A DNA stretch of 64,000 nucleotides, taken from assembly GCA_024137785.1 (NCBI GenBank), contig JAHRHZ010000025.1, positions 23,420,219 through 23,484,218 on the forward strand, written 5' to 3'. Numbering within the stretch: position 1 is the first letter of the stretch; every line of letters begins with the position of its first letter. Below, piece by piece: positions 888-61,939 of this stretch. Under the pieces are notes generated by a model. That model searched no databases and was not told where the DNA came from. It was given only the letters and a program-made list of their open reading frames with translations. A program made the translations under genes and the position numbers. The DNA comes from Ginglymostoma cirratum (Eukaryota).

Positions 888-1171
888 TGAGAACAAAATG
901 AAGTCAAGGTTGTCAGAAGAAAGAAAAGAATCCATGGCCTCAGAAATGGAAAGAAACCTCCAGGCCATCAAAACTGGAAAAGATTCATTTGAGTAAGAAG
1001 TCTGTAAATTAAGATACGAGTGATACTTCATTAGGATTGAATGCCTGTAAATGATATTGCTGGGAAAAAGTTGAATATTTTTCTTGTTTGTGTTAAGATC
1101 TTTATAACTCATCAAATGTATAGAATTTTATTTTACTTTTGTTTAACAAACTTCCGTTTTTTTCCTAGAAG
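888..1171 (+). repeat. Inverted duplication, copy 1 (284 bp)
   Basis: Reverse complement of 1945-2228; ORFs 1041+ and 1878- encode near-identical peptides. Confidence 0.95.
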
Positions 1172-5110: not shown

Positions 5111-5373
5111 CATTTTGTGATACAGGTGTCTTTCCTCTGTTCTGTGAGGGTATCTGTTGCTATTTGAAAAACCTCACATTGCACACAGGTGAATCGCTCT
5201 TCCTCAATGAATGAAACACTTACTCAGCACACTCCAGATGTGGTGGTAGCCATTTTCATTTCCATTGCCCACCTGCTACTTGGATGACGAGGAAAGGACA
5301 CAGCGGTGACTTTTCACTGAGTCACAGCCTCAGTGTCCTAGTATAGGTGACCCCCAAATCTTCATATTGTCTG

Positions 5374-5610
5374 ACAAAAATAGAAATTGCTGGAAAAGCT
5401 CAGCAGGTCTAGCAGCAACTGTGAAAAGAAATCAGAGTTAAAGTTTCGGGTCAAGCTTCCCTTCCTTAGAACTTCTCCAGTTCTAAGGAAGTGTCACTCA
5501 ATCCAAAACATTAACTCTGATTTCTCTCCACAGATGCTGCCAGACCTGAGCATTTCCAGCAATTTCTATTTTTGTCTCTAATTTACAGCATCTGCAGTTC
5601 TTTCGATTTT
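5374..5610. mobile_element. Fold-back PLE-derived mini-element with degenerate hammerhead cores
   Basis: Arms about 5374-5473 and 5479-5577 are inverted repeats; only the right arm has the cagcatctgcagttc tail; ttcatatt at 5361 and 5615 is a possible TSD. Confidence 0.8.
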
Positions 5611-16853: not shown

Positions 16854-17074
16854 AACAAAAACAGAAATTGCTGGAGAAACTCAGCAGGTCTGGCAGGATC
16901 CCTGGAGTGGAAACAAAGTTAACATTTTGAGTCCAGTGACCCTTCTTCCGAACTGGTCCCTGGAATCAATGTTAACTCTGTTCTCTCTCCCGAGATGTTG
17001 CCAGACCTGTTGAGCTCCTTTCACAATTTCTGTTCTTGTTTGTTTCAGATCTCCAGCAGCTGCAGTTCTTTGTT
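16854..17074. mobile_element. Fold-back PLE-derived mini-element with 14 bp TSD
   Basis: Inverted arms of the 5374 family; ccattttgttaata (16840) versus ccatattgtgaata (17075). Confidence 0.8.
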
Positions 17075-23330: not shown

Positions 23331-24259
23331 ATATTCATTAAGATCCATGGTCATGTATTGTGCCTCCACAATCTTAATGAGACACTGGAAATCTTGTCTG
23401 CCATGCAAACAGCCAGCAAGAAACTCAAGCTGCTTCTTTTTGGGATAGTCAACCGATCAGGGAGTGGCAGACCTTTCTCTGGAATCAATCCCCAGGATCG
23501 AGGTCCCAACTACTGTGAGTTGCCAGACAATCAGAAGGCAACTTTTTTGCTCAATGGGCCAATGGGAAGGCAGAGGCTGCTGCCAGAACAACAGGCACCA
23601 GAGTCCAAGGAATAAGGAGAGACCCAGGTCACAGGTAGTTATGTTACGAAGATTTATGCAAGTTGCAGGGGTAGGGGAATAGGAATATAGGTATTTGGTA
23701 GCAAGTCAATGGGAGGGGTGTAGCATTGGGTGTGGCTCTCAGCAGGCTTCCAGATGTCATGTTCTGAGATAAACCACAGAGCGCCTTGATCAAGGAACCA
23801 CCACTAACCTTTTGAGATAATGAGATGGCAACACAATTTTACCTGTTGGGTACTTTGCATGGCAACTGGCCCAGCTACATTAGGTATAATACCAGCAGTG
23901 GCCAGATAAAGCTCTTTAGTGGTCTTTCATTTGCCACTTTAAGATGTTAATTGGAATCAGGATGAGAAAGTCGACCATAGGCCATGAACCCTGATTTAAT
24001 TATGGCCGAGGTGAAAAGGGTTCTGTATGCCACTATCCAACATGCCCTGCCCTTACCAATTACAAGCTCTTCCACCCTCAAGGTTCACCATGAGACAGGG
24101 AAAAAGATCCTATTCAGTGTTACTATCAGCTCTTTACTGAATGGATGTCTGTGTGCTCACTCTCCTCTCCACTTTAGCAAGTCATAACTATCTGATCCAA
24201 ATCTAAATGTTCTGTCTAGCAAAAGCATATGAAAGAAAACATTTTCCATTATCTTTGAG

Positions 24260-24385
24260 TTCTGAGGTAGTCAGACTGGAGCCAAAACATTATCTTTGTT
24301 TCCCTCTCCACAGATGCTGCCAGATCTGCTGAGTTTCTCCAGCATTCTCTGTCTTTCAGATCTCCAGCATCTGCAGCATTTTGCA
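24260..24385 (+). mobile_element. PLE terminal fragment with decayed hammerhead core
   Basis: agttctgagg..aaaacatta..cacagatgctgccagatctgctgagtttctccagca..ccagcatctgcag. Confidence 0.75.
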
Positions 24386-31057: not shown

Positions 31058-31155
31058 AGAGATAACAAGTTGTGGGGCTGGATGAACACAGCAGGCCAAG
31101 CAGCATCATAGGAGCAGGAAAGCTTCGCGTTTCGGGCCTAGACCCTTCATCAGAA
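31058..31155 (-). mobile_element. 98 bp PLE-derived mini-insertion with 14 bp TSD, starting at the hammerhead core
   Basis: TSD acaatataacaatg at 31044 and 31156; minus strand starts ttctgatgaagggtctaggcccgaaacgcg. Confidence 0.92.
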
Positions 31156-31667
31156 ACAATATAACAATGTTGGATCAAGATTCTATGATAGTTTCTAGGA
31201 TTAATTTTATATGTCTGTCTTAAGCGCAGCCAAGCACTTGGCATGTTTCAGTGTCTAATGGAAAAAGGTTGGCTGTATCCAGGAATCTTTCTGATGCCAC
31301 CCTCAACATTAATCACAAGCCAAGTTTGCACCTGTAGAGAGAAACATGCTGTCAGCGCTGACACTGCTATTTGCTCTCGGTTTCGCAATTCTATTAGGAG
31401 ACATCGTCTAAATATTCATCAGTGAAATTAGGAAATTTGACATAAGGAATGGTGCAACCTGGGAACTCTCCTCCTCCAGCAGCAGTACACCCGAGATCAA
31501 TTTCCAATTTTAAAACTTAGATTGGTAAACTGTTGGTAGGTAAACATTATTTGGGGCAAAGACCAGATCACCCATGATTTCATTGAGTGGCAGGTCAGGC
31601 TCAAAGGACAAATGGCTTCCCCCTGTCACTATATTCGTAAAATAGGATATATAATTTTACCCAGAGG

Positions 31668-32940
31668 TAGCAAGAATTGCAGATGCTGGAATCAGAGACA
31701 ACACAGTGTGGAACTGAAGGAACACAGCAGGCCAGGCAGCATCAGAGGAGCAGGAAAGTCAATATTTGGGGTCAGGACCCTTCATCAGAAACGGGGAGGG
31801 GGAAGGGAGCTGGGAAATAAATGGAGAGAGGAAGGGTAGGGCTGGGGAAGGTAGGTGGGATGGTGATAGGTTGGATGCAGGTAGACGGTGGTGGGGATTG
31901 GTCAGTGGGAATGGTGGGATGGATAGGTGGGAGAGAATGTGGGCAGGTCGTGTCAGGTCAAGGGAACCAGGATGAGAGGGAGGGTTGGATATGGAATGGG
32001 GCTGGGGGTGGGGAGATTTTAAAACTGGTGAATCTTATGTTCAGGCCATTGGGCTGTAGGGTCCTGAGGCAGAATATGAGGTGCTGCTCCTCCATGTGTT
32101 GCATGTGGTGTCATTGTGACACTGGAGGCAGTCCAGGATTGTCATGTCATCAAGGGAGTGGGAGTTAAAATGGTTAGTGACCAGAAAGTGTTGTCGTTTG
32201 TCGGGTACAGAGTACAGATGCTCCACAAAACGGTTCCCGCATCTGCGTTTGGTCTCACTGATGTAGAGGGGGCCACATTGGAAGCAACGGATACAGTAGA
32301 CCAAGTTAGAAGATGTACAGGAGAACCCCTGTTGAATATAGGAGGTTAACTTTGGGCCTTGAATGGGGGTGATGGGGGGGAGGTGTAGGGGCAGATGTAG
32401 CCCTTCCTGTGGTTGCAGGGAAAGGTGCCACGTGTGGGTGGGATTAGTGGAGACTGTGGAGCAGACAAGGGAGTCGCGGAGAGAGCGGTCCCTGTGGGTG
32501 GGAGGGAAATATCTCTTTGGCCGTAGGGTCAGATCGTAGGTGGCAGAAGTGGTGGAGAATGATACACTGGATGCGGAGGTTGGTGGCGTAATATGCGAGG
32601 ACCGGGGGACTCTGACTTTATTTTTGCTGGGGAGAGGGGTTTTGAGGGAAGAAGTGCAGGAAATGCAAGAGATGCAGTTGAGGGCATTTTTGATCACAAG
32701 AGGAGGGGACGTTGTGGTCCTTGAAATAGGAGGATAGCTGGGATGTCTCGGAGTGGAACACCCCATCTTGGGAGCAGACACAGCAGATGTGGAGGATTGA
32801 ATTCTTGCAGGAGGGTGAGTGAGATGAGGTGTAGTCCAGGTAGCTATGGGAGTTGGTGGGCTTGAATTAGATGTCAGTGTTGAGGCAGTTACCAGAGATG
32901 GAGACAGCGAGGTCCAGGAAGGAGAATGAGGTATCACACA
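31668..32940 (-). mobile_element. Penelope-like element 3' half (reverse transcriptase C-terminus, GIY-YIG endonuclease, 3' terminal repeat)
   Basis: SFLDLAVSISG..TDI*FKPTNSHSYLDYTSSHP; FSCTSSNLVYCIRCFQCGPLYISETKRR..RFVEH..VTNHFNSH. Confidence 0.93.
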
Positions 32941-33187
32941 GCAAGAGAGTGGCAAGGTGCAAATCAGTAAAACAGAAGACGAGATAAATCAAGGAGTAAA
33001 GACTTGAGTTTGTGAATTTTGCGTTATTGAAGATTGTAGGGAAGAAGTGTCACAAAGCAACTTTGAAAAGTTCATGACAAGTAAAGTTTATTAGCAAAAT
33101 AACAGCAGATTCCTTTTATTCAGAGAGAAAATTATGTCTTCAGCATCCCACGCACTCAGTTTCACCTCAAGATCGACCAAGAGTGTA

Positions 33188-33305
33188 AAGGTGCCAGTGT
33201 TGGACTGGGATGGACAAAGTCAAAAATCACACGACACAAGGTTATAGTCCAACAGGTTTATGTGAAATCACAAGCTTTCACAGCACTGCCCCTTCATCAG
33301 GTGAA
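33188..33305 (-). mobile_element. Terminal repeat of a second PLE-type family with hammerhead core
   Basis: Minus strand tcac-CTGATGA-a-ggggc agt gctgt-GAAA-gctt-gtga. Confidence 0.7.
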
Positions 33306-33554: not shown

Positions 33555-33685
33555 AATCCTGAAGAAGGGTAATACTCAAAATGCTGACTTCTCCTCTCCT
33601 CTATATGCTGCCTGGCCTGCTGTATTCTTCCAGTCTCCGGTTTGTCTACCTTGGATTCTAGCATCTGCAGTTTTTTTGTCTCTGA
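33555..33685 (+). mobile_element. PLE terminal fragment, further family
   Basis: aatc-CTGAAGA-a-gggt aat actc-aaaa-tgct-gact..tgctgcctggcctgctgt..agcatctgcag. Confidence 0.75.
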
Positions 33686-34364
33686 TTGTATCTTCCTCAG
33701 CTGAAAGAGGTCAAGCTTTGAATATTCACCTGTAACATTTATTTCACGTTGACATAAGTGGGAATTTAAAGTACACTGGGATTTTTCATCTGATTTTTAA
33801 AAATAATTACCTTCGTTTTGAAAAAATGAAATAATTTTCAGTCATTGTTTAGACAAATTTAGTATGACAACAGCAGCTGCTTCAAGTCACTGGATCCAAT
33901 GCCCAAGGTTCCTTGTGGAGTATTTAGTTTTTATTGCTGTTTCTCTAGATAGGCTGAGAAGTAGTTATTTTTTAATGTGACCAGTGTTAAGCTGTAATTA
34001 CTCTATTAATTAGAAATGAGCCGAAATTAAAAGCTGGGGCTAGTTTCTGAAACAGATTGAGATTTTCTTTTACTCATAACTATTAATTTCAGTGATTAAA
34101 CATTACTGATTTGACTTTGACTTTATATGGAAACTGTCTTTAATTTCTTGGCCTTAACTTTCATAACAAAACCAATCACTGCCAAAGTCAGTGTAATTTG
34201 TATCATGCTGTAACTATATCAAGCGTTCATTGTCTGTTTACTGCTGGTGTTTCAATGTTAATGTTAGGGATGTTCTTCCCTTTACTGTCCTCCTTTACGA
34301 TGGAAAGTGCTCGTTGATGCTGGGTATAGGGCACCAGTTGTCCTGCATCATTGCTCCTCTGGGA

Positions 34365-36985: not shown

Positions 36986-37249
36986 CTAATGGAAATATTG
37001 AAGTTAGGGCATTGCTGACATTGCCACAATTGGCCAGAAATCAACTGTAGGAACGTGTGCCATTTTGATTGGATTTGTGTAAGCATACACAATTGTATTA
37101 CCCCTACTGTTTTTAACAATTCCGACTTTCTTCACTCTTAAGTCAAAAGTATTAATCTCTATTTCAATGAAGGGATCATTCTCAATTTAATCAGTTGTAA
37201 CTGGTTTATGTACAAAGAAATGGGTAGATATGGTAGTAATAATAGTGTT

Positions 37250-37870
37250 TCTTTAATTCATTCATGGGAATGGACATGGTTGGCTGGTCCAGCATTGATT
37301 GCACATCCTGGTTTCCCTTGAGAAGGAGGAAATGAGCTGCCCTGTTTGAACTGCTGCAATCCAAGTGCTGTAGATAGACCCACAATGTCGTGAGGGAGGG
37401 AGTTCCAGGATTTTGACCCAACAACAGCAAGGAACAGCTATATTGTTCCAAGGCAGAATGGTGAGTAGTTTTCAAGGAGAACTTACAGGTTGTGGTGATC
37501 CCATCTATCTGTTGCCCTTGTTGTTCTAGATGGAAGTGGTCATGGGTTTGGAAGGTGCTATCTAAGGAGCCTTGGTGAATTTCTACAGTGTACCTGACTG
37601 TCAGTGGTGGAGGGAATGGATGTGGTGCCAATCAAGCAGGCTGCTTTGTCCTAGATAATGTCAAGCTTCTTGAGTGTTGTTGGAGCTGCACCCTATCCAG
37701 GCAAATGGAGAGTATTCATCACACTCTTGACTTATGCTTTGTAGATGGTGGACAGGTTTTGGGGAATAACTCACTGCAGGATTCCTAGGGTCCTCTCTGC
37801 TCTTGTAACTACTGCATTTATATGGCTAGTCTAGTTCCATTTCTGGATGGGGGGATTCAGTGATAAGAGG
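37250..37870 (-). mobile_element. CR1-group (L2/Crack-like) LINE 3' end
   Basis: Reverse complement of the 54600-55197 family end. Confidence 0.8.
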
Positions 37871-40255: not shown

Positions 40256-40371
40256 CTCTATTTGGTTTCCTTGTTCTGTTTGTGTTTTCAGTTTGGGTCT
40301 GCCTAAAGAAATACAAACTTTAAAAGCACAGATTTCTTCAAAACCAATACATCCGTTTGCATTGCAAAGAA

Positions 40372-40470
40372 CAGTCACTGGGCTCGAAATGTTAACTCTG
40401 CATTCTTTGCACTGATGTTTGCAGACCTGCTGAGCTTCTCCAGCAATTTCTGTTTTTGTTTCAGACTTCC
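40372..40470 (+). mobile_element. PLE terminal fragment (5374 family)
   Basis: gtcactgggctcgaaatgttaactctg..gacctgctgagcttctccagcaatttctg. Confidence 0.75.
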
Positions 40471-46519: not shown

Positions 46520-46790
46520 AAAATCTAGCCATTGTCCCTTGTCATTCAATGGCATCACCATCATAAAATGCCACATCCTGGGGGTCACCAGAAGCTGAAT
46601 GGGACTAAACCATGGCTGCAAGAGCAGGTCAGAGACTAGTAACATGCACTTAAGTAAATAATTCACTTCCTGACTCCCAAAAGCCTGTCCACCATCCACA
46701 AGGCACAAGTCTAGATTGTGATGGACTACGTCCCGCTTGCCTGGCTGAGTGTAGCCCCAGGGCAAAGCCCCAGGACACATTGGCACTGCA
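46520..46790 (+). mobile_element. CR1-group (L2/Crack-like) LINE fragment
   Basis: catcctgggggtcacc..atggctgcaagagcaggtcagag..ctcccaaaagcctgtccacc matches 54540-54720. Confidence 0.75.
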
Positions 46791-47849: not shown

Positions 47850-48770
47850 CTTCATGAGGGCAAAGGAGAGGGTGGATCCTGTCATGCTGTTCCTTGAGCA
47901 GACTGTCAAAGTCATTTGGCAGAATGCGCATCACTAGAACTTTCCAACAAGCACCAAGACATTGCATGGCTGGTGGTAAGAAGGGCATTACCTGTGAGAT
48001 TCTTTATGAACACCCGGACTTGCTGCACCACTGCACAATGCCCTCAAAGTGGCTGCAGGGGGATACAGACTGTCACACGCCTCCTTCTGGAATGTGCCTT
48101 TGCAACCGAACTCTGGAGAGAGATATAATGGTTTTTGTGAAGATTCACCCCAGTAGCTCTCTGACGCAGGACTCTGTGCTGTACGGTCTGCTCCCTAGGA
48201 TGCACTCCAAGACAAAAATCAACTGCGCCTGGAGGACCATCAACTGGATGAAAGATGCTCTTTGGTCTGCCTGAAACTTGTTGGCCTTCCAAAGCAAGGA
48301 GTTGACCTCAACTAAGTGTTGCAGACTGGCACATTCCAAGGTCCAGGACTACATGCTGAGGAATGCAACCTGTCCATCTTCTCACCGACCTATCTGCCCT
48401 CCCACCTCACTAACCAATCCCCACCACTCCCTACCTGCACTCACCTAGCACCATCTACCTTCCCCAGCTCCACCCCTCCTCCCTATTTATTTCTGAGGTC
48501 CCTTCAACCTCCCCATTTCCGAAGAAGGGTCCTGACCCGAAACATCAGCTTTCCTGCTCCTCTGATGCTGCTTGGCCTGCTGTGTTCATCCAGCTCCACA
48601 CGTATTATGTAAATATAGTCTTGTACAAGTTAGAAAAGCTAGATAGAGTCAAATTCCAATGTTTGTTTGTTTCTTCATATGCTACTTAACGGAACCAAAC
48701 TGCTTTAGTGACTATTTATGTAGATAAAAATATATTTATAAATAAAGTATGCTTTTGAAATAAAAATAAA
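47850..48770 (+). mobile_element. Tx1-type L1 LINE 3' end inserted in the Gypsy integrase
   Basis: ELSNKHQDIAWLVVRRALPVR..CPQSGC..TVTRLLLECAFATELW (zf-RVT-like); A-rich end at 48740-48770. Confidence 0.8.
48367..48610 (+). mobile_element. PLE 3' terminal repeat nested in the Tx1 fragment
   Basis: C-rich UTR then ccgaaga-a-gggtc ct gaccc-gaaa-catcagctttcctgctcc. Confidence 0.85.
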
Positions 48771-53289: not shown

Positions 53290-55197
53290 TCAACCAGGTA
53301 GAGGACCTACCACCAGGGCTATCTGCATAGCAAACAGCATAAGCAAGTGATAGGCAGAGCTAAGTAACCCCATAAACAACAGATCAGATCTAAGCTCTGT
53401 AGTCCTGACTCACCCACTCATGAATGTTGGTGGATGATTAAACAACACACTGAAGGAGGAGGCTCCACAAAGATCCTCATCCTCAATGATGCAAAAGCCC
53501 GGCATATCAGTACAAGAGATAAGTACAAAAGGCTGTAGCATTTTTCAGCAATCTTCAGAAGTACAAGTGAATGATCCATCTTGGCCTCCTCCCGTTGTCT
53601 CAGCATTACAGATACCAGTCTTCAGCTAATTCGATTCACTCCATGTAATATCAAGAAACAGTTGGAAAGACCAGATACTGCAAAGGCTATGAGCCCTGAA
53701 AACATTCCGGCAATAGCTTTGAAGACTTGTGCTCCAGAACTTGCCGTTCCCCTAGCCAGGCTGTTGCAGTACAGTTACAACACTGGTACCTACCCAACAA
53801 TGTGGAAAATTGCCCAAGTGTGTCCTGCACACAAAAAGCAGGACAAATCCAATCCGGCCAATTACTGCCCCATCAGTCTACTCTCAATCATCAGTAAAGT
53901 GATGGAAGGTGTCATCATCAGTGCTATCAAGCAGCACCTGCTCAGCAATAACCTGCTCAGTGATGCCCAGTTTGGGTTCCGCCCAGGCCATTCAGCTCCT
54001 GACCTCATTACAGCCTTGGTTCAAACATGGGCAAAAGCGCTGAATTCCAGAGGTGAAGTGAGAGTGACAGCCCTTGATATCAAGGCTGCATTTGTTGAAG
54101 TGTGCCATCAAGGAGCCCCAGCAAAACTGGAATCAATGAATATTGAGGCAAAACTCTCCAGTGGTTAGAGTCATACCTGCCACATAACAAGATGGCCATG
54201 CTTGTTGGAGGTAAGTCATCTCAGCTCTAAGACATCTCTGCCGGAGTTCCTCAAGGCACTGTTCTAGGTCTCAACCATTTTCAGCTGCTTCATCAATGAC
54301 TTTCCCTCCATCATAAGGTCAGAAGTGGGGATGTTCACCGATGATTGCACAATGTTCAGCACCATTCGTGACTCCTCAGATACTGAAGCAATCCATGTTC
54401 AAATGCAACAATATCCAGACTTGGGCTGACAAGTGGCAAGTAATATCCACACTACACAAATGCCAGGCTATGACTATCGCCGATAAAAGACAATCTAACC
54501 ACCACACCTTTACAATCAATAGTATTACAATCACTATCAACATCCTGGGGGTTACCATTGACCAGAAACTCAACTGGACTCACCACATAAACACAATGGC
54601 TGCAAGAGTAGGTTAGAGGCCAGAAATACTGCGGCAAGTTAGTCACCTCCTGACTCCTCAAAGCCTGCCCACCACAAGTCAGGAGTGTGATGGAATACTC
54701 CCCACTTGCCTCGATGGGTGCAGTTCTAACAACTCTCAAGAAACTTGACACCATCAAGACAATGTAGCCCCCTTGATTTACATGACATCAACAAGCGTCC
54801 ACTCCCTCCAGCACAGACGCTCAGTAGCAGCAGTGTGTACTATCTACAAGACACACTGCAGAAATTCACCCAACATTCTCAGACAGCTCCTTCCAAACTC
54901 ACGACCACTTCCATCTAGAAGAACAAGGGCAGCAGATACATGGGAACACCACCATGTGCAAGTTGCCCTCCAAGCCACTAATCATCCTGACTCAGAAATG
55001 TATCAATGTCCCTTCACTGTCGCCGTGTCGAAATCATGGAATTTCCTCCCTAATGGTATTGTGGGTCAACCTACAGCAGGTGGACTGCAGTGGTTCAAGA
55101 AGGCAGCTCACCACCACCTTCTCAAGGGCAACCAGGGTTGGGCAATAAATGATGGCCATGCAGCAAAACACACATCCCATAAATGAATAAAAAAAAG
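53290..55197 (+). mobile_element. CR1-group (L2/Crack-like) LINE, RT domain to 3' end, with stops and frameshifts
   Basis: WKIAQVCPAHKK..NYCPISLLSIISKVME..QFGFRPGHS..LDIKAAF; GVPQGTVLG; MFTDD; A-rich terminus. Confidence 0.92.
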
Positions 55198-55829
55198 GAA
55201 TATGGGGTGGAAGTAGACTCATGTAGATTATAATCAACAGCATTGACCTGTTAGAGCAAATACTATTATGCTGAAACGTCTATGTAATTTACAAAATGGG
55301 TTAGTACACATTTCCTTATTTAGTATGTTTTATACAATAGGCCAAACATTAGTGCACTTATAAAGGGTGGTTTCGCACTCCCGGGGAAACAGCACTCACA
55401 AGTTTTCTTTACTTCAAATTGAATGGGTGATAACTCAGAGATCACACAGATACAATTCCCCGTGATGTTGTGATGCTCTCCCTTTGATGGTTGATCCCCA
55501 TTGTGATTGCAGACCTTGCAAGTAGATCTCCGGAAAAGATGGTGATTATTTGCCAACTCATCTGGCTGAGTCAGTTCTTTGCCTGTTGCCTCTCTCATTC
55601 TTAGTAGATGTGTGCTTTTGCTGGAAGGATACTGAAGTGAGATCATTGGATGACGGTAGCAGCACAACATTCTGAAATATAGTTGGCATCAAAAAATTTA
55701 AACTTTCTGATGTCAAGGGCAGTTTAGGCAATAAACTATGTAAAAAATGTATCTCCAGTGCACTTAATTTGCAAATGAACATTACCACACAATCTGAAAG
55801 AACAATAAGCAGACAAAGAGCATAATTCT

Positions 55830-56048
55830 AGATAACAAGCATGGGGCTGGATGAACACAGCAGGTCAAGCAGCATCATAGGAGCAGGAAAACTTGACGTT
55901 GTGGGATTTTTTTTTTTCTGATGAAGGGTCTAGGCCCGAAACGTCAAGTTTTCCTGCTCCTATGATGCTGCTTGACCTGCTGTGTTCATCCAGCCCCATG
56001 CTTGTTATCTCGGATTCTCCAGCATCTGCAGTACCTTTTATCTCTGAT
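55830..56048 (+). mobile_element. Young fold-back PLE mini-element (219 bp) with 17 bp TSD
   Basis: TSD acaaagagcataattct at 55813 and 56049; arm 55830-55900 is the reverse complement of about 55940-56009; ~37 nt tail only on the right arm. Confidence 0.95.
55915..55948 (+). ncRNA. Minimal type I hammerhead ribozyme motif, core intact
   Basis: ttt-CTGATGA-a-GGGT ctag GCCC-GAAA-CGTC-aag; predicted cleavage after C55945; activity untested. Confidence 0.7.
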
Positions 56049-56991
56049 ACAAAGAGCATAATTCTTCTTGGTTTCCCTCCATCGTTATTGGCAACTGCTC
56101 AAAATTCGCAAGTTTCTATTCTATACACTTGAGCAGAAACTATGAATGTGAATACTCTTGTTCACCTGAGGGGTTATTGAAGCTGCCCTTACCTGAGGCA
56201 CATTCTCATTCATGAACACAGCTTCCAGTAGGTGTCACTAGAAGGCAACCAGGAGCCAGAAACCTGTCTGACTATGATTCAAAGGTGCTGAGATCATTTA
56301 TGGCACCAATTCCATGTGTGATTAAGAATACAACTGATAGCAATACGTTTTGCCATGTATAGTCTCCAGTGGAAACTGAAATACAAAGATTTGTGGCCAG
56401 GCTGAAGATTCAACATTAGACTGTGTAAGATCCTGCCAATTATTTACTGTTACAATGCGCACTGACATCATTTTGACTTGGAATATCTTTAAACAACTGT
56501 TTTTTTGAACTGATCTAGGAAAATGCTTATTACCACAGCATACCTGAGTACAGGTCAAACATTATCACATCCGAATTTTATAAAACATTCTCAAACTTTT
56601 TTTTAAACTTTTGCATTTTACTACTTGGCTTCAAGTACATCTCTTGTGTTCGGTGCCTTAAATTCCCTTAGTAAATGTGTTGACTGATGGGGTTCAGGAA
56701 TCATAAACTTTACATTAACTGCTCTCAGTTGGATTTTGAGAATCTGGATTATCTGTTAACTATATATAGCCATAACCTGATCTGAAAATCTGCATCTGCT
56801 CAATGGAATTCAGATTTAATGGTATAAATGTTGCTAACTAGCTCTTGGAAGCATTGGATCCAAATTAAAAGAAGAACATGATAATGGAGACTAAAATCAA
56901 ATTTCATTCTTCTTATTTCTTTTCTCCAAACTTTAGTGGAATTTTGAGAGCTAAATTCTACAATCTTGATAATTTTTGATGAAAATCAAAT

Positions 56992-57480
56992 AAAATCATA
57001 GAATTCTACAATGCGGGAGGGGGCCATTTGACTCATCGTGTCTGTATTGGCTCCTGAAAGAAATGCCCGACTAATCCCATTCTCCATCTGAGGAAGGGTC
57101 ACCGGACCCGAAATGTTAATTCTGTTTTCTCCTTCACAGATGCTGCCAGACCTGCTGAGCTTTTCCAGCAACTTTGTTTTTGTTCCCATTCTCCAGCCCT
57201 ATCTCTGTAGTCCCCTGAATTTGTCACTTTTATCAAATAAAGACCCAGCTCTGTTTTGGAACCTCCGATGGAATCTGCCTCCATCACTCGCCCAGGCATC
57301 ACATTCCAAATCCTAACAACTGTCACCTCACTCCTAGTTTTCTTGACCCCTAGTTACTCTCATACCAACTAGCAGAAACAGAATATCCTTCTTTACCCTG
57401 TCAAAATTGTTCAGAACTTTGAACACCTCAATAAAGTCACCTCTTAATCTTCTTTGCTCCCAGGAGAAAAAGCCCAAGTG
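56992..57480 (-). mobile_element. CR1 3' fragment
   Basis: LGFFSWEQRRLRGDFIEVFKVLNNFDRV; VVRIWNVMPGRVMEA. Confidence 0.85.
57087..57183 (+). mobile_element. 97 bp PLE-derived mini-insertion with 12 bp TSD, starting at the hammerhead core
   Basis: TSD tcccattctcca at 57075 and 57184; begins t-CTGAGGA-a-GGGTC accg GACCC-GAAA-tgtta. Confidence 0.92.
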
Positions 57481-58843: not shown

Positions 58844-58938
58844 GGTAACAAGGTGTAGAGCTGGATGAACACAGCAGGCCAAGCCGCATCAGAGGAGCAG
58901 GAAAGCTGACATTTCGGGCCTAGACCCTACTATCTCCT
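58844..58938 (-). mobile_element. 95 bp PLE mini-insertion with 15 bp TSD at the terminus of another PLE
   Basis: TSD ctataaactgtgtgg at 58829 and 58939; inverted arm followed by the tail remnant tactatctc. Confidence 0.85.
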
Positions 58939-58944
58939 CTATAA

Positions 58945-60392
58945 ACTGTGTGGAGCTGGAGGAATGCAGCAGGCCAGGCAGCATCAGAGGAGCAGGAAAG
59001 CTGATGTTTCGGGTCGGGACCCTTCCTCAGAAATGGGGGAGGGGAAGGGGACTCTTAAATAAGTAGAGGGGGGTGGGAGTAGCGGATAGGGTGGGAGAGA
59101 AGACGGACAGGTCAATGAGATGGGGATGAGAGGGGGCTCTGGTCTTGGGATGAGGTCAGGGGTGGGGAGATTTTGAAGCTAGTAAAGTCCACATTGAGAC
59201 CATTGGGTTGTAGGCTTCCAAGACGGAATATGAGGTGCTGTTCCTCCAGTTTCCGGGTTTGTCCCAGATGTCCTTGGATTTCAAGGACCACAACATCCCC
59301 ACCTCAGAGGTCGAAAACGCCCTTGACCATATCTCTTGTGCTTCCCGTACCTCAGCCCTCACACCCCCTCCCCGCAATAAAAACAAAGACAGAATTCCCC
59401 ATGTCCTCTCGTATCACCCCATTAACCTCCGGATTCAACGCATCATTCTGCGCCACTTCCTCCACCTGCAATCTGACCCCAGTACAAAGGATATATTTCC
59501 CTCCCCACCCTTATCTGCCTTCCGGAGGGACCATTCTCTCTGCGACTCCCTCATCCGCTCCACACTCCCCACGAGCCCCACCACCCCCGGCACTTTTCCC
59601 TGCAACCACAGGCAGTGCTACACCTGCCCCTACACCTCCCCTCTCACCTCCACCCCAGGCCCCAAAAAAGACCTTCCACATCAAACAGATGTTCACCTGC
59701 ACATCCTCTAATGTGGTCTATTATATCCGCTGTTCCTGATGTGGCCTCCTCTACATCGGGGAGTCAAAGTGGAAGCTCAGAGACCGCTTTGTGGAGCACC
59801 TGCGCTCAATTCACGACAAACGACAACACCTCCCGGTCGCGAACCACTTCAACTCCCCCTCCCACTCCCTGGACGACATGTCCATCCTGGGCCTCCTCCA
59901 GTGTCAAAACGATGCCACCTGAAAACTGGAGGGGCAGCACCTCACATTCCACCTTGAAAGCCTACAATCCAATGGTCTCAATGTGGACTTTACTAGCTTC
60001 AAAATCTCCCCACCCCCAACCACGTCCCAAGACCAGCCCCCCTCTCTGATCCCCGCCTCATTGACCTGACTGTCTTCCCTCCCACCTAACCTATCCTCCC
60101 ACCTCACTGATCAATCCCCACCCCTACATACCTACACTCACCTTTACTAGCTTCATCCCGGCCTCGTTGACCTGTCTGTCTTCCCTCCCACCCTATCCGC
60201 TCCACTATCTACTTGCTATCACAGCCTGTCCCTCTCTCTATTTATTTAAGAGCCCCTTCCCCTCCTCCATTTCAGAAGAATGGTCCAAACCCGAAATGTC
60301 AGCTTTCCTGCTCCTCTGATGCTGCCTGGCCTGCTGTGTTCCTCCAGCTCCACACTGTGTTATTTCAGACTCCAGTATCGGCAGTTCTTAGT
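58945..60392 (+). mobile_element. Penelope-like element with 5' inverted arm (58945-59255, minus) and sense GIY-YIG plus 3' repeat (59260-60392)
   Basis: MFTCTSSNVVYYIRCS*CGLLYIGESK..RFVEH..VANHFNS; acctataaa at 58827 and 60393 as possible TSD. Confidence 0.92.
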
Positions 60393-60904
60393 ACCTATAA
60401 ATTGCATTGTCCTCCTTCTCCTGCTTAAAGGCAATGACAGTTGGACTGCATTTCAGTCCAAACCCTTCAGTAAGGAACCTAGAGACCATTATTCCCAAGT
60501 GAGCCAAGGAACTGAATGCCGGCAGCTGCCAATAAATTGAAGCTGCTTCAGTTAGATCCAATTCTATCTTCATCTGGCATCTTCACACTTCTACACAAGG
60601 AGAGCATTTTCAAAGATTAAAAATAATCTTCTCAAAGTGTCCATGTCACTCTTTTTTAAACTAAAATGAATGACATCAAAGGAATATCAAGCACAAATTG
60701 GCTTATTCTGTCGAAAGGGACATTAATGCATCTATCTCTTAGGCAAAATTACTAGGGGGCTACAAAAGTGAGCAACCAATGAGAAACCAACCAGTTACAA
60801 ATATATCAGAGATAAAAGGTACTGCAGATGCTGGAGAATCCGAGATAACAAGCATGGGGCTGGATGAACACAGCAGGTCAAGCAGCATCATAGGAGCAGG
60901 AAAA

Positions 60905-60938
60905 CTTGACGTTTCGGGTCTAAACCCTTCATCAGAAA
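60905..60938 (-). ncRNA. Minimal hammerhead ribozyme motif, core intact
   Basis: Minus strand ttt-CTGATGA-a-GGGT ttag ACCC-GAAA-CGTC-aag. Confidence 0.7.
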
Positions 60939-61689
60939 TGGGGGAGGGGAAGAGGGTTCTGAAATAAATAGGGAGAGAGGGGGAGGCGGATAGAGGAGAA
61001 GATAGGTGGAGAGGAGGCAGACAAGTTGAAGAGGCGGCGATGGAGCCAGTAAAGATGAGTGTAGGTAGGGGGGTAGGGAGGAGATAGGTCAGTCCAGGGA
61101 GGACAGACAGGTCAAGAGGGCGGGATGAGGTTAGTAGATAGGAGATGGGGGTGTGGCTTGAGGTGAGAGGAAAAACAGGTTAGGGAGGTGGAGATGAGCT
61201 GGGCTGGTTTTGGGATGCGGTTGGGGGAGGGGAGACTGTGGCATTGCAGGAGGCCCAGGATGGACATGTCATCTGAGGAATGTGGATTTCACAAGAACCC
61301 TGCAGCCCAATGGCATCAATGTGGATTTCACAACAATCCTGCAGCCCAATGGCATCAATGTGGATTTCACAAGCTTCAAAATCTCCCCTCCCCCAACCGC
61401 ATCCCAAAACCAGCCCAGCTCATCTCCACCTCCCTAACCTGTTTTTCCTCTCACCTCAAGCCACACCCCCATCTCCTATCTACTAACATCATCCCGCCCC
61501 CGTGACCTGTCCGTCCTCCCTGGACTGACCTATCTCCTCCCTACCCCCCTACCTACACTCACCTTTACTGGCTCCATCCCCGCCTCTTCGACTTGTCTGC
61601 CTCCTCTCCACCTATCCTCTCCTCTATCCATCCTCTATCCGCCTCCCCCTCTCTCCCTATTTATTTCAGAACCCTCTTCCCCTCCCCCA

Positions 61690-61723
61690 TTTCTGATGAA
61701 GGGTTTAGGCCCGAAACGTCAAG
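61690..61723 (+). ncRNA. Minimal hammerhead ribozyme motif, core intact
   Basis: ttt-CTGATGA-a-GGGT ttag GCCC-GAAA-CGTC-aag. Confidence 0.7.
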
Positions 61724-61939
61724 TTTTCCTGCTCCTCTGCTGCTGTTTGACCTGCTGTGTTCATCCAGCCCCATGCTTGTTATCTCAGTTACAAATATAC
61801 CCGTGACTGCAACAACACCCAATACATAATCCAATACAGGACTTTTAGATTGCCTCAGATTGGTATCAGGTCACCCATAAGTACCTTTGCCAACTCTAAC
61901 TAGGTGCATTCTGGACGTTTCAACAGATGGCCACTCAAT

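What the first reader, a model, noticed from the sequence alone, without database searches (positions are those of the whole stretch)
55915..55948. Minimal hammerhead ribozyme cores with stem covariation across at least four PLE-derived families
Seen: the pattern CUGANGA-A-stemII-GAAA-NN-UH is intact at 55918(+), 60935(-) and 61693(+), and lightly mutated at 5483, 31153(-), 33300(-), 33559, 48519, 57088 and 59030(-). The core stays constant while the helices change together. Stem I is UUU/AAG (55915), AGUU/AACU (5479) or UCAC/GUGA (33304-). Stem II is GGGU/GCCC, GGGUC/GACCC or GGGGC/GCUGU. Stem III is reduced to a loopless palindrome, ACGU or AGCU. Known: PLE terminal repeats carry minimal type I hammerheads that are thought to cleave as dimers. 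Inference: these families encode obligate-dimer hammerheads at very high genomic density. I do not know whether these shark families have been characterised.
Basis: partly seen in the sequence, partly recalled or inferred. Interest (0 to 1): 0.75.

Follow-up and report, generated by a model that had tools for sequence, protein, structure and literature searches.

The report
Penelope retroelement minimal hammerheads in shark
The repeated motif is a real minimal hammerhead-ribozyme sequence carried at the 3' end of Penelope-like jumping genes in what is likely a shark genome, a kind described in 2014, and the copies here are likely inert leftovers, many of which begin just before the ribozyme rather than at its predicted cut site.

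Summary
The motif is real: 4 strict structural hits against none in 300 control sequences, and 15 near-complete copies in 64 kb, only 3 fully intact. It lies about 250-300 nt behind broken GIY-YIG reading frames whose named relatives are whale-shark and zebra-shark proteins, so it is the known minimal type I hammerhead of Penelope-like elements (PLEs; Cervera 2014). Stem I covaries across 34 clusters of related motifs from other hosts (82% paired against 41% shuffled); within the window covariation is weak and mixed with decay. PLE origin is shown for one family, inferred for two, and unshown for the fourth. Dimer cleavage is inferred from published relatives. No copy here has an intact same-strand partner, the named copy's cut site is predicted to be buried in a 71-bp hairpin, and RNA reads show no end pile-up. 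One extra: 8 of 18 arms start within 8 nt upstream of the catalytic core and none at the cut site, which suggests uncleaved templates with a fixed 5' end. This scan noted the same motif, and the same 5' clustering, before on other DNA. Ordinary; low interest.

The parts
55915..55948 (+). Intact minimal type I hammerhead motif, family A; predicted cut after C55945
   Evidence: sequence; strict descriptor hit
55946..56048 (+). Downstream module with the long 'tail' end (about +130 from C3)
   Evidence: 98.5% identical to 60804-60938
55830..55900 (-). Inverted arm without the tail; covers A14 to +98, including cut site and 3' strand of stem I
   Evidence: predicted fold of the locus -158 kcal/mol
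55813..55829 (+). Left target-site duplication, 17 bp
   Evidence: exact match to 56049-56065
56049..56065 (+). Right target-site duplication, 17 bp
60804..61786 (.). Head-to-head PLE insertion with two intact motifs (60935-, 61693+), 3' UTR, end of the GIY-YIG frame, 14-bp duplication
   Evidence: 87% inverted self-match
59262..60396 (+). 5'-truncated PLE: CX4CX2C linker, GIY-YIG domain with a frameshift and two stops, 3' UTR, decayed motif at 60273, long tail
   Evidence: 73-76% to P0003; Pfam GIY-YIG E 1.8e-4
58941..59279 (-). Inverted arm of the same insertion, motif at 59030 (stem III ACAU)
58846..58940 (-). Short insertion that starts inside the motif, 15-bp duplication
31662..32950 (-). 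Second broken PLE frame with decayed motif at 31789
   Evidence: 47-60% to P0003; 71% to 59262-60396
31059..31156 (-). Solo family A insertion that starts 2-3 nt before C3; motif damaged at 16.1/17; 14-bp duplication
48368..48611 (+). Family A fragment with damaged motif at 48519
33559..33686 (+). Diverged copy (about 75% to family A), decayed motif
5373..5610 (.). Family B head-to-head insertion, damaged motifs at 5469- and 5483+, both arms start at the 5' strand of stem I
16855..17074 (.). Family B head-to-head insertion, motif at 16950-, second arm starts in stem II
24258..24376 (+). Family B solo copy, damaged motif at 24262
40367..40466 (+). Family B fragment that starts inside the core
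57087..57183 (+). Family B solo insertion that starts 1 nt before C3; 12-bp duplication
33269..33304 (-). Family C motif: stem I UCAC/GUGA, palindrome AGCU, decayed stem II; single copy, no PLE frame beside it

Best explanation
The motif is the minimal type I hammerhead that sits in the terminal repeat of endonuclease-bearing Penelope-like retroelements, likely of the Neptune type and likely in a shark, and it is predicted to cut only when two copies pair, so the scattered solo and head-to-head copies here are likely inert insertion leftovers. Shown: motif, position behind a GIY-YIG frame, target-site duplications, head-to-head arms with the tail on one arm only, stem I covariation in relatives. 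Inferred: in a tandem element a read-through RNA holds two motifs; their ACGU (or AGCU) palindromes pair to make stem III, and the RNA is cut after C17. A single copy cannot close a 2-bp stem III without a loop. Also inferred: the RNA that was copied into DNA was uncleaved, reverse transcription began at two internal sites about 95 and 130 nt past C3, and many copies ran to a fixed template end just before stem I, giving 100-135-bp insertions.
For: Position behind PLE frames at 59262-60054 and 31973-32950; GIY-YIG match; relatives from Rhincodon typus (74%) and Stegostoma tigrinum (69%), the first with RT and GIY-YIG domains, the second with a C-terminus that seems to read through the same motif. 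Clear duplications of 12-17 bp at 5 of 14 loci against 0 of 200 controls. Tail on one arm only in 5 of 5 head-to-head loci, as described in PMC8557442 and PMC3846280. Stem I, which the search pattern left free, pairs in 82% of cells over 34 clusters against 41% shuffled, 0 of 10000 as high; 24 of those 120 loci carry a PLE-like frame. Same architecture, dimer-only weak cleavage and mostly single copies in PMC4209133. Uncleaved template and two RT start sites shown in vitro for an anole PLE in PMC11167929.
Against: No cleavage was measured for these sequences. RNA runs show no place where many molecules begin or end, though fragmented poly(A) libraries are a weak test. Stem I of the commoner sub-family is only 2 bp, so activity even as a dimer is doubtful. 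No full-length or tandem element lies in the window, and no whole genome was available. Families B and C have no frame beside them. Neptune versus Nematis rests on the linker motif alone; no RT tree was built. The host is inferred from protein relatives.
Confidence: 0.85

Rival explanations
1. The motif is kept for a job other than cleavage, such as a binding or promoter signal for the PLE protein or the host polymerase, and rarely or never cuts in vivo.
For: 0 of 18 arms start at the cut site; no RNA end pile-up; in the anole element cleavage was not needed for insertion in vitro and no reads ended at the site (PMC11167929); PMC8557442 calls the function unclear; 8 of 9 Xenopus dimers did not cleave (bioRxiv 10.64898/2026.07.22.740005).
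Against: All catalytic positions and the H17 register are kept across unrelated hosts, with stem I covarying; dimers of relatives cleave weakly in vitro.
Confidence: 0.3
2. Families B and C are independent short non-autonomous elements (SINE-like or retrozyme monomers) that are transcribed and copied as 100-135-nt units by PLE proteins, rather than truncation products of full-length elements.
For: All 7 family B arms are short and none extends upstream; 5' ends cluster; retrozymes of PLE origin are reported in one chondrichthyan (bioRxiv 10.64898/2026.07.22.740005).
Against: Family A shows the same short forms beside long, frame-linked forms; 3' ends, duplications and inversions are those of PLE insertion units; no tandem array of the unit was seen in the window.
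Confidence: 0.2
3. The genomic copies, or this copy, act as working ribozymes that cut host transcripts in trans as dimers.
For: The family makes up 58,031 of 12,895,792 records read in one RNA run, so partners are abundant; 3 copies are intact.
Against: The intact copies lie in head-to-head loci; the named locus is predicted to fold into a long hairpin over the cut site; a 4-bp palindrome gives little stability, and the predicted best two-strand fold is not the active one; reads lie equally on both strands, as for passive transcription.
Confidence: 0.05
4. The motif is a chance look-alike spread by a repeat.
For: Rfam finds nothing; copies in the window are related, so they are not independent.
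Against: 0 hits in 300 controls; covariation of a free helix in other hosts; published class.
Confidence: 0.02

Closest known systems
Minimal hammerheads (min-HHR) in the pLTRs of metazoan Penelope-like elements (Cervera and De la Pena 2014, PMC4209133)
   Same: Type I core, unpaired base between A9 and G10.1, G10.1-C11.1, short stem I, loopless palindromic stem III, many families per genome, mostly single copies; reported in fish Neptune and Poseidon elements, coelacanth (about 4,000) and Xenopus (about 9,000).
   Different: Sharks are not named in the parts read or in the 2 searchable supplement files (file 1 could not be searched; figures not seen). Stem II here is 4-5 bp. Density looks far higher: 15 motifs in 64 kb.
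Insertion units of endonuclease-positive PLEs: pLTR, inverted 5'-truncated copy, one-sided tail (PMC8557442, PMC3846280)
   Same: Head-to-head arms, a 30-40-nt tail on one arm, target-site duplications, strong 5' truncation.
   Different: A pile-up of 5' ends at the upstream edge of the ribozyme was not found in the passages read.
PAc, Poseidon element of Anolis carolinensis (Frangieh 2024, PMC11167929)
   Same: Hammerhead at the pLTR junction; two internal RT start sites that define the tail; uncleaved RNA as template.
   Different: Different clade by the linker motif; in PAc the start codon lies in the ribozyme, whereas the ATG in the family A core meets a stop after 15 codons.
Non-LTR retrozymes (bioRxiv 10.64898/2026.07.22.740005)
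   Same: Non-coding, type I hammerhead, PLE-derived, found in one chondrichthyan.
   Different: Defined by tandem repeats with a complete ribozyme in two or more consecutive units; none here.

Membership tests
PLE minimal hammerhead | Core CUGANGA, GAAA, UH in type I order | tested here: met
   intact in 55918, 60935, 61693
PLE minimal hammerhead | Unpaired base between 9 and 10.1, and G10.1-C11.1 | tested here: met
   G-C in 13 of 15 copies; extra A in the alignment
PLE minimal hammerhead | Palindromic 15.1-16.1 segment without loop 3 | tested here: met
   ACGU in the 3 intact copies, AGCU at 33300; decayed in the rest
PLE minimal hammerhead | Helix covariation between families | tested here: met
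   strong for stem I in 34 clusters from other hosts; weak within the window
PLE minimal hammerhead | Located in the terminal repeat of a PLE (family A) | tested here: met
   about 250-300 nt behind GIY-YIG frames
PLE minimal hammerhead | Located in the terminal repeat of a PLE (families B, C and the 33559 copy) | tested here: inconclusive
   B and 33559 share 70-79% tail similarity with A; C has no partner or frame in the window
PLE minimal hammerhead | Cleaves as a dimer and not as a monomer | not testable with these tools
   no assay; RNA reads show no end pile-up
Neptune/Nematis PLE | Zn-finger-like CX2-5CxxC linker before a C-terminal GIY-YIG domain | tested here: met
   CX4CX2C near 59600 and in P0003; definition in PMC8557442
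Neptune/Nematis PLE | Placement by RT phylogeny | not tested
   RT core absent from the window copies; no reference set at hand
EN+ PLE insertion unit | Inverted 5' copy, one-sided tail, target-site duplication | tested here: met
   5 of 5 head-to-head loci asymmetric; clear duplications at 5 of 14 loci
Non-LTR retrozyme | Two or more consecutive tandem units with complete ribozymes | tested here: not met
   only same-strand neighbour pair is 59030-/58928-, and the second lacks the core
Rfam hammerhead families | Gathering score | tested here: not met
   0 matches in the window

The most novel reading that the evidence does not exclude
The PLE transcript starts a few bases before the hammerhead (an initiator-like CCA+1 four bases before C3 in families A and B), so the ribozyme is the first 35 nt of the RNA. 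The uncleaved single-ribozyme RNA is the main template, and copying from the internal RT start sites to this 5' end mass-produces 100-135-bp ribozyme-headed insertions. The ribozyme then acts as a switch that spares single-copy RNAs and cuts only read-through dimers, and insertion ends in genomes map PLE start sites directly.
Probability: 0.35. Interest if true: 0.5.

Novelty: new member of a known kind. Interest (0 to 1): 0.2.

Why it matters
As a ribozyme find it adds a host lineage to a class known since 2014. If it matters, it is as a very large natural record of PLE insertion ends: they suggest that the copied RNA was uncleaved and had a fixed 5' end at the ribozyme, which bears on the open question of what PLE hammerheads do. 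The head-to-head copies would also be a large source of double-stranded RNA in shark transcripts.

Tried and rejected
Rfam scan: 0 matches. Whole genome: none held, so no genome-wide count or R-scape-type test. Pfam on the window's raw frames missed the PLE; it was seen only after reading through two stops with X. One search used a structure string shifted by three columns for stem I; it is discarded and redone. Run X24 gave only 40 reads and says nothing about RNA ends; contig runs X16 and X1 cannot show ends or strand. The partner-arm search in other hosts was mostly uninformative because alignments ran through the inversion centre: of 43 rows none began at the cut site, the nearest at +6. 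A splice-acceptor reading of the 5' clustering was considered and set aside: family A has no AG at the edge and family B copies keep the AG. Papers: searches for shark or elasmobranch hammerheads gave 1 irrelevant hit and 0 hits; searches for start site or truncation at the ribozyme gave no paper that states the clustering in its listing. The library lacks most subscription papers; Lunse et al. (RNA Biol) was not held and is known here only through a review. Supplements of the 2026 preprint were not seen and may list the shark families.

Full report
Observation. At the named site the order is UUU, CUGAUGA, an extra A, GGGU-CUAG-GCCC, GAAA, CGU, C55945, AAG. A strict descriptor that asks for the core and for pairing in stems I and II finds 4 sites, against 0 in each of 300 Markov controls. 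A looser scan adds five near-complete copies, giving 15 aligned copies. Three are fully intact (55918, 60935, 61693). Rfam gives no match.

What carries it. Family A motifs lie about 250-300 nt behind broken frames at 59262-60054 and 31973-32950. Read through with X at two stops, the first matches Pfam GIY-YIG (E 1.8e-4, just under the curated cut-off). Of 28 protein relatives, the two with organism names come from Rhincodon typus (74%) and Stegostoma tigrinum (69%). The first has RT and GIY-YIG domains; the C-terminus of the second looks like a read-through of the same motif. A CX4CX2C linker precedes the nuclease, which PMC8557442 gives as the mark of Neptune and Nematis elements. So the host is likely a shark and the element likely Neptune-type; no tree was built. 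Family B and the 33559 copy share 70-79% similarity with family A in the tail. Family C is a single copy with no frame beside it, so its PLE origin is not shown here.

Insertion anatomy. The named site is the right arm of a head-to-head insertion, 55830-56048, between exact 17-bp duplications. Clear duplications of 12-17 bp were found at 5 of 14 loci tested, against 0 of 200 control pairs; two more were weak, three were weaker and four had none. In 5 of 5 head-to-head loci one arm ends about 80-98 nt past C3 and the other about 112-131 nt past it. This is the inverted copy with a one-sided tail described in PMC8557442 and PMC3846280, and it fits the two internal RT start sites shown for the anole element in PMC11167929.

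Covariation. Within the window, 80.7% of cells pair against 76.4% in shuffles (1 of 500 as high), with 5 pairs showing a two-sided change (13 of 500). The copies are related and decayed, so this is weak. They hold 126 matches; 10 with G at position 17 and 2 without upstream sequence were dropped, and 114 fell into 34 clusters. The first three stem I positions pair in 82% of cells against 41% shuffled (0 of 10000 as high; slid controls 27% and 47%), with A-U, U-A, G-C and C-G all used. The clusters are not fully independent, and their hosts were not determined. 24 of the 120 loci carry a frame like the shark PLE protein. The motif is therefore a conserved structure of PLEs in many hosts.

How it likely works. 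A 2-bp stem III without a loop cannot close in one molecule, so the active form needs two motifs whose palindromes pair. PMC4209133 found no cleavage of a single Schistosoma motif and low cleavage of dimers and trimers; a review cites Lunse et al. for dimer cleavage. A tandem PLE would supply two motifs on one RNA. The copies here do not: the only same-strand neighbours are 59030 and a core-less copy at 58928. At the named locus the 71-bp inverted arm is predicted to pair with the cut site and the 3' strand of stem I (-158 kcal/mol). The other two intact motifs face each other in one 87%-identical inverted pair. In one raw RNA run the family made up 58,031 of 12,895,792 records read, equally on both strands, with no place where many molecules begin or end. 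That looks like passive transcription, and it is a weak test of cleavage. The copies are thus likely inert.

The one extra. Of 18 family A, B and 33559 arms, 8 start within 8 nt upstream of C3, 4 start inside the motif before the cut, 6 extend far upstream, and 0 start at or after the cut. Six of the eight are fixed by a duplication or an inversion centre; 24262 and 33559 rest on loss of similarity only. A crude uniform model gives P of about 3e-5 after allowing for the choice of window; it is post hoc. In RNA reads, depth falls about threefold across that edge, and 4 of the 15 joints shown (255 not shown) are strand switches with one side at -7 to +1. Against: the depth fall can also come from families with other upstream sequence, and three joints have a side 4-5 nt past the cut, where the aligner clips the commoner sub-family, so ends at the cut are not excluded. 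In other hosts, one family has 7 of 22 arms ending 10-19 nt before C3, plus 3 contig ends there, and another has 7 of 14 ending 12-19 nt before it; two further families (8 and 10 arms) show no such peak. That search could only find copies with an intact motif. The simplest reading is an uncleaved template with a fixed 5' end, perhaps a start site: CCATTT and CCAGTT fit an initiator pattern (recalled consensus, short, weak evidence), and Drosophila Penelope has an internal initiator-type promoter (PMC2377424). Rivals are a cut by the element's own nuclease at ATT, which the anole protein prefers, and microhomology joining at the T-rich edge.

Comparison and novelty. The motif matches the minimal hammerhead of PMC4209133 in every feature that could be tested. 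PLE expansion in whale-shark introns is reported (bioRxiv 10.1101/443036), and hammerhead-bearing PLE-derived repeats in one chondrichthyan (bioRxiv 10.64898/2026.07.22.740005). I found no paper on these shark families, in a library that lacks most subscription papers and without Repbase or Dfam. After my reading was written down, a word search showed that this scan had reported the same motif several times on other DNA, once with the same 5' clustering. These are unchecked notes and not independent support.

What was read. PMC4209133: parts 1-2 of 4 (results and discussion) and a term search of 2 supplement files. PMC11167929: parts 1-2 of 4 (main text). bioRxiv 10.64898/2026.07.22.740005: parts 1-3 of 5, no supplements. 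PMC8557442, PMC3846280, PMC2377424, PMC6765202, PMC6155905, PMC8455134 and 10.1101/443036: passages around search terms. Lunse et al.: nothing, cited through the review. Figures were not seen.

Verdict. A correct catch of a known kind: new members of the PLE minimal hammerhead class, mostly broken, likely inert where they lie. Interest 0.2.

Noticed in passing
window 60790-61300, run X23: In raw RNA reads T>C was listed at 62 of 88 T positions and A>G at 41 of 156 A positions, against C>T at 11 of 63 and G>A at 22 of 204. This may be A-to-I editing of hairpins made by head-to-head copies; no DNA of the same animal was available.
   Followed up: no
window 58846-58940: A short copy has inserted at the 3' end of an older copy (59030 arm); its 15-bp duplication includes the end of the older arm and the older target site.
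   Followed up: partly
window 61235-61360: The centre of the 60804-61786 inversion holds a duplicated piece of the GIY-YIG C-terminal coding region, a sign of template jumping at the junction.
   Followed up: no
window 61650-61670 and equivalents: A pyrimidine tract ending in TTTCAG lies about 25 nt upstream of the family A motif and looks like a splice acceptor; PLE pLTRs are known to hold introns. Not tested.
   Followed up: no
L011, L013, L019, L027, L033, L047, L057, L072, L096: Ten matches have G at position 17 and read GAAAC-GT-GT-A/T, a variant with a 2-nt longer palindromic stem III; left out of the stem I count.
   Followed up: no
L018, L022, L038, L061, L007: Head-to-head pairs with junctions close to the 5' edge of the motif also occur in other hosts.
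   Followed up: partly
window 53575-55196: LINE-type reverse transcriptase fragment (Pfam RVT_1, E 4e-12) with related pieces at 37248-37846 and 46609-46759; several other LINE-like repeats fill the window.
   Followed up: no
window 888-1171 and 1945-2228: A 284-bp inverted repeat pair about 770 bp apart, unrelated to the hammerhead families.
   Followed up: no
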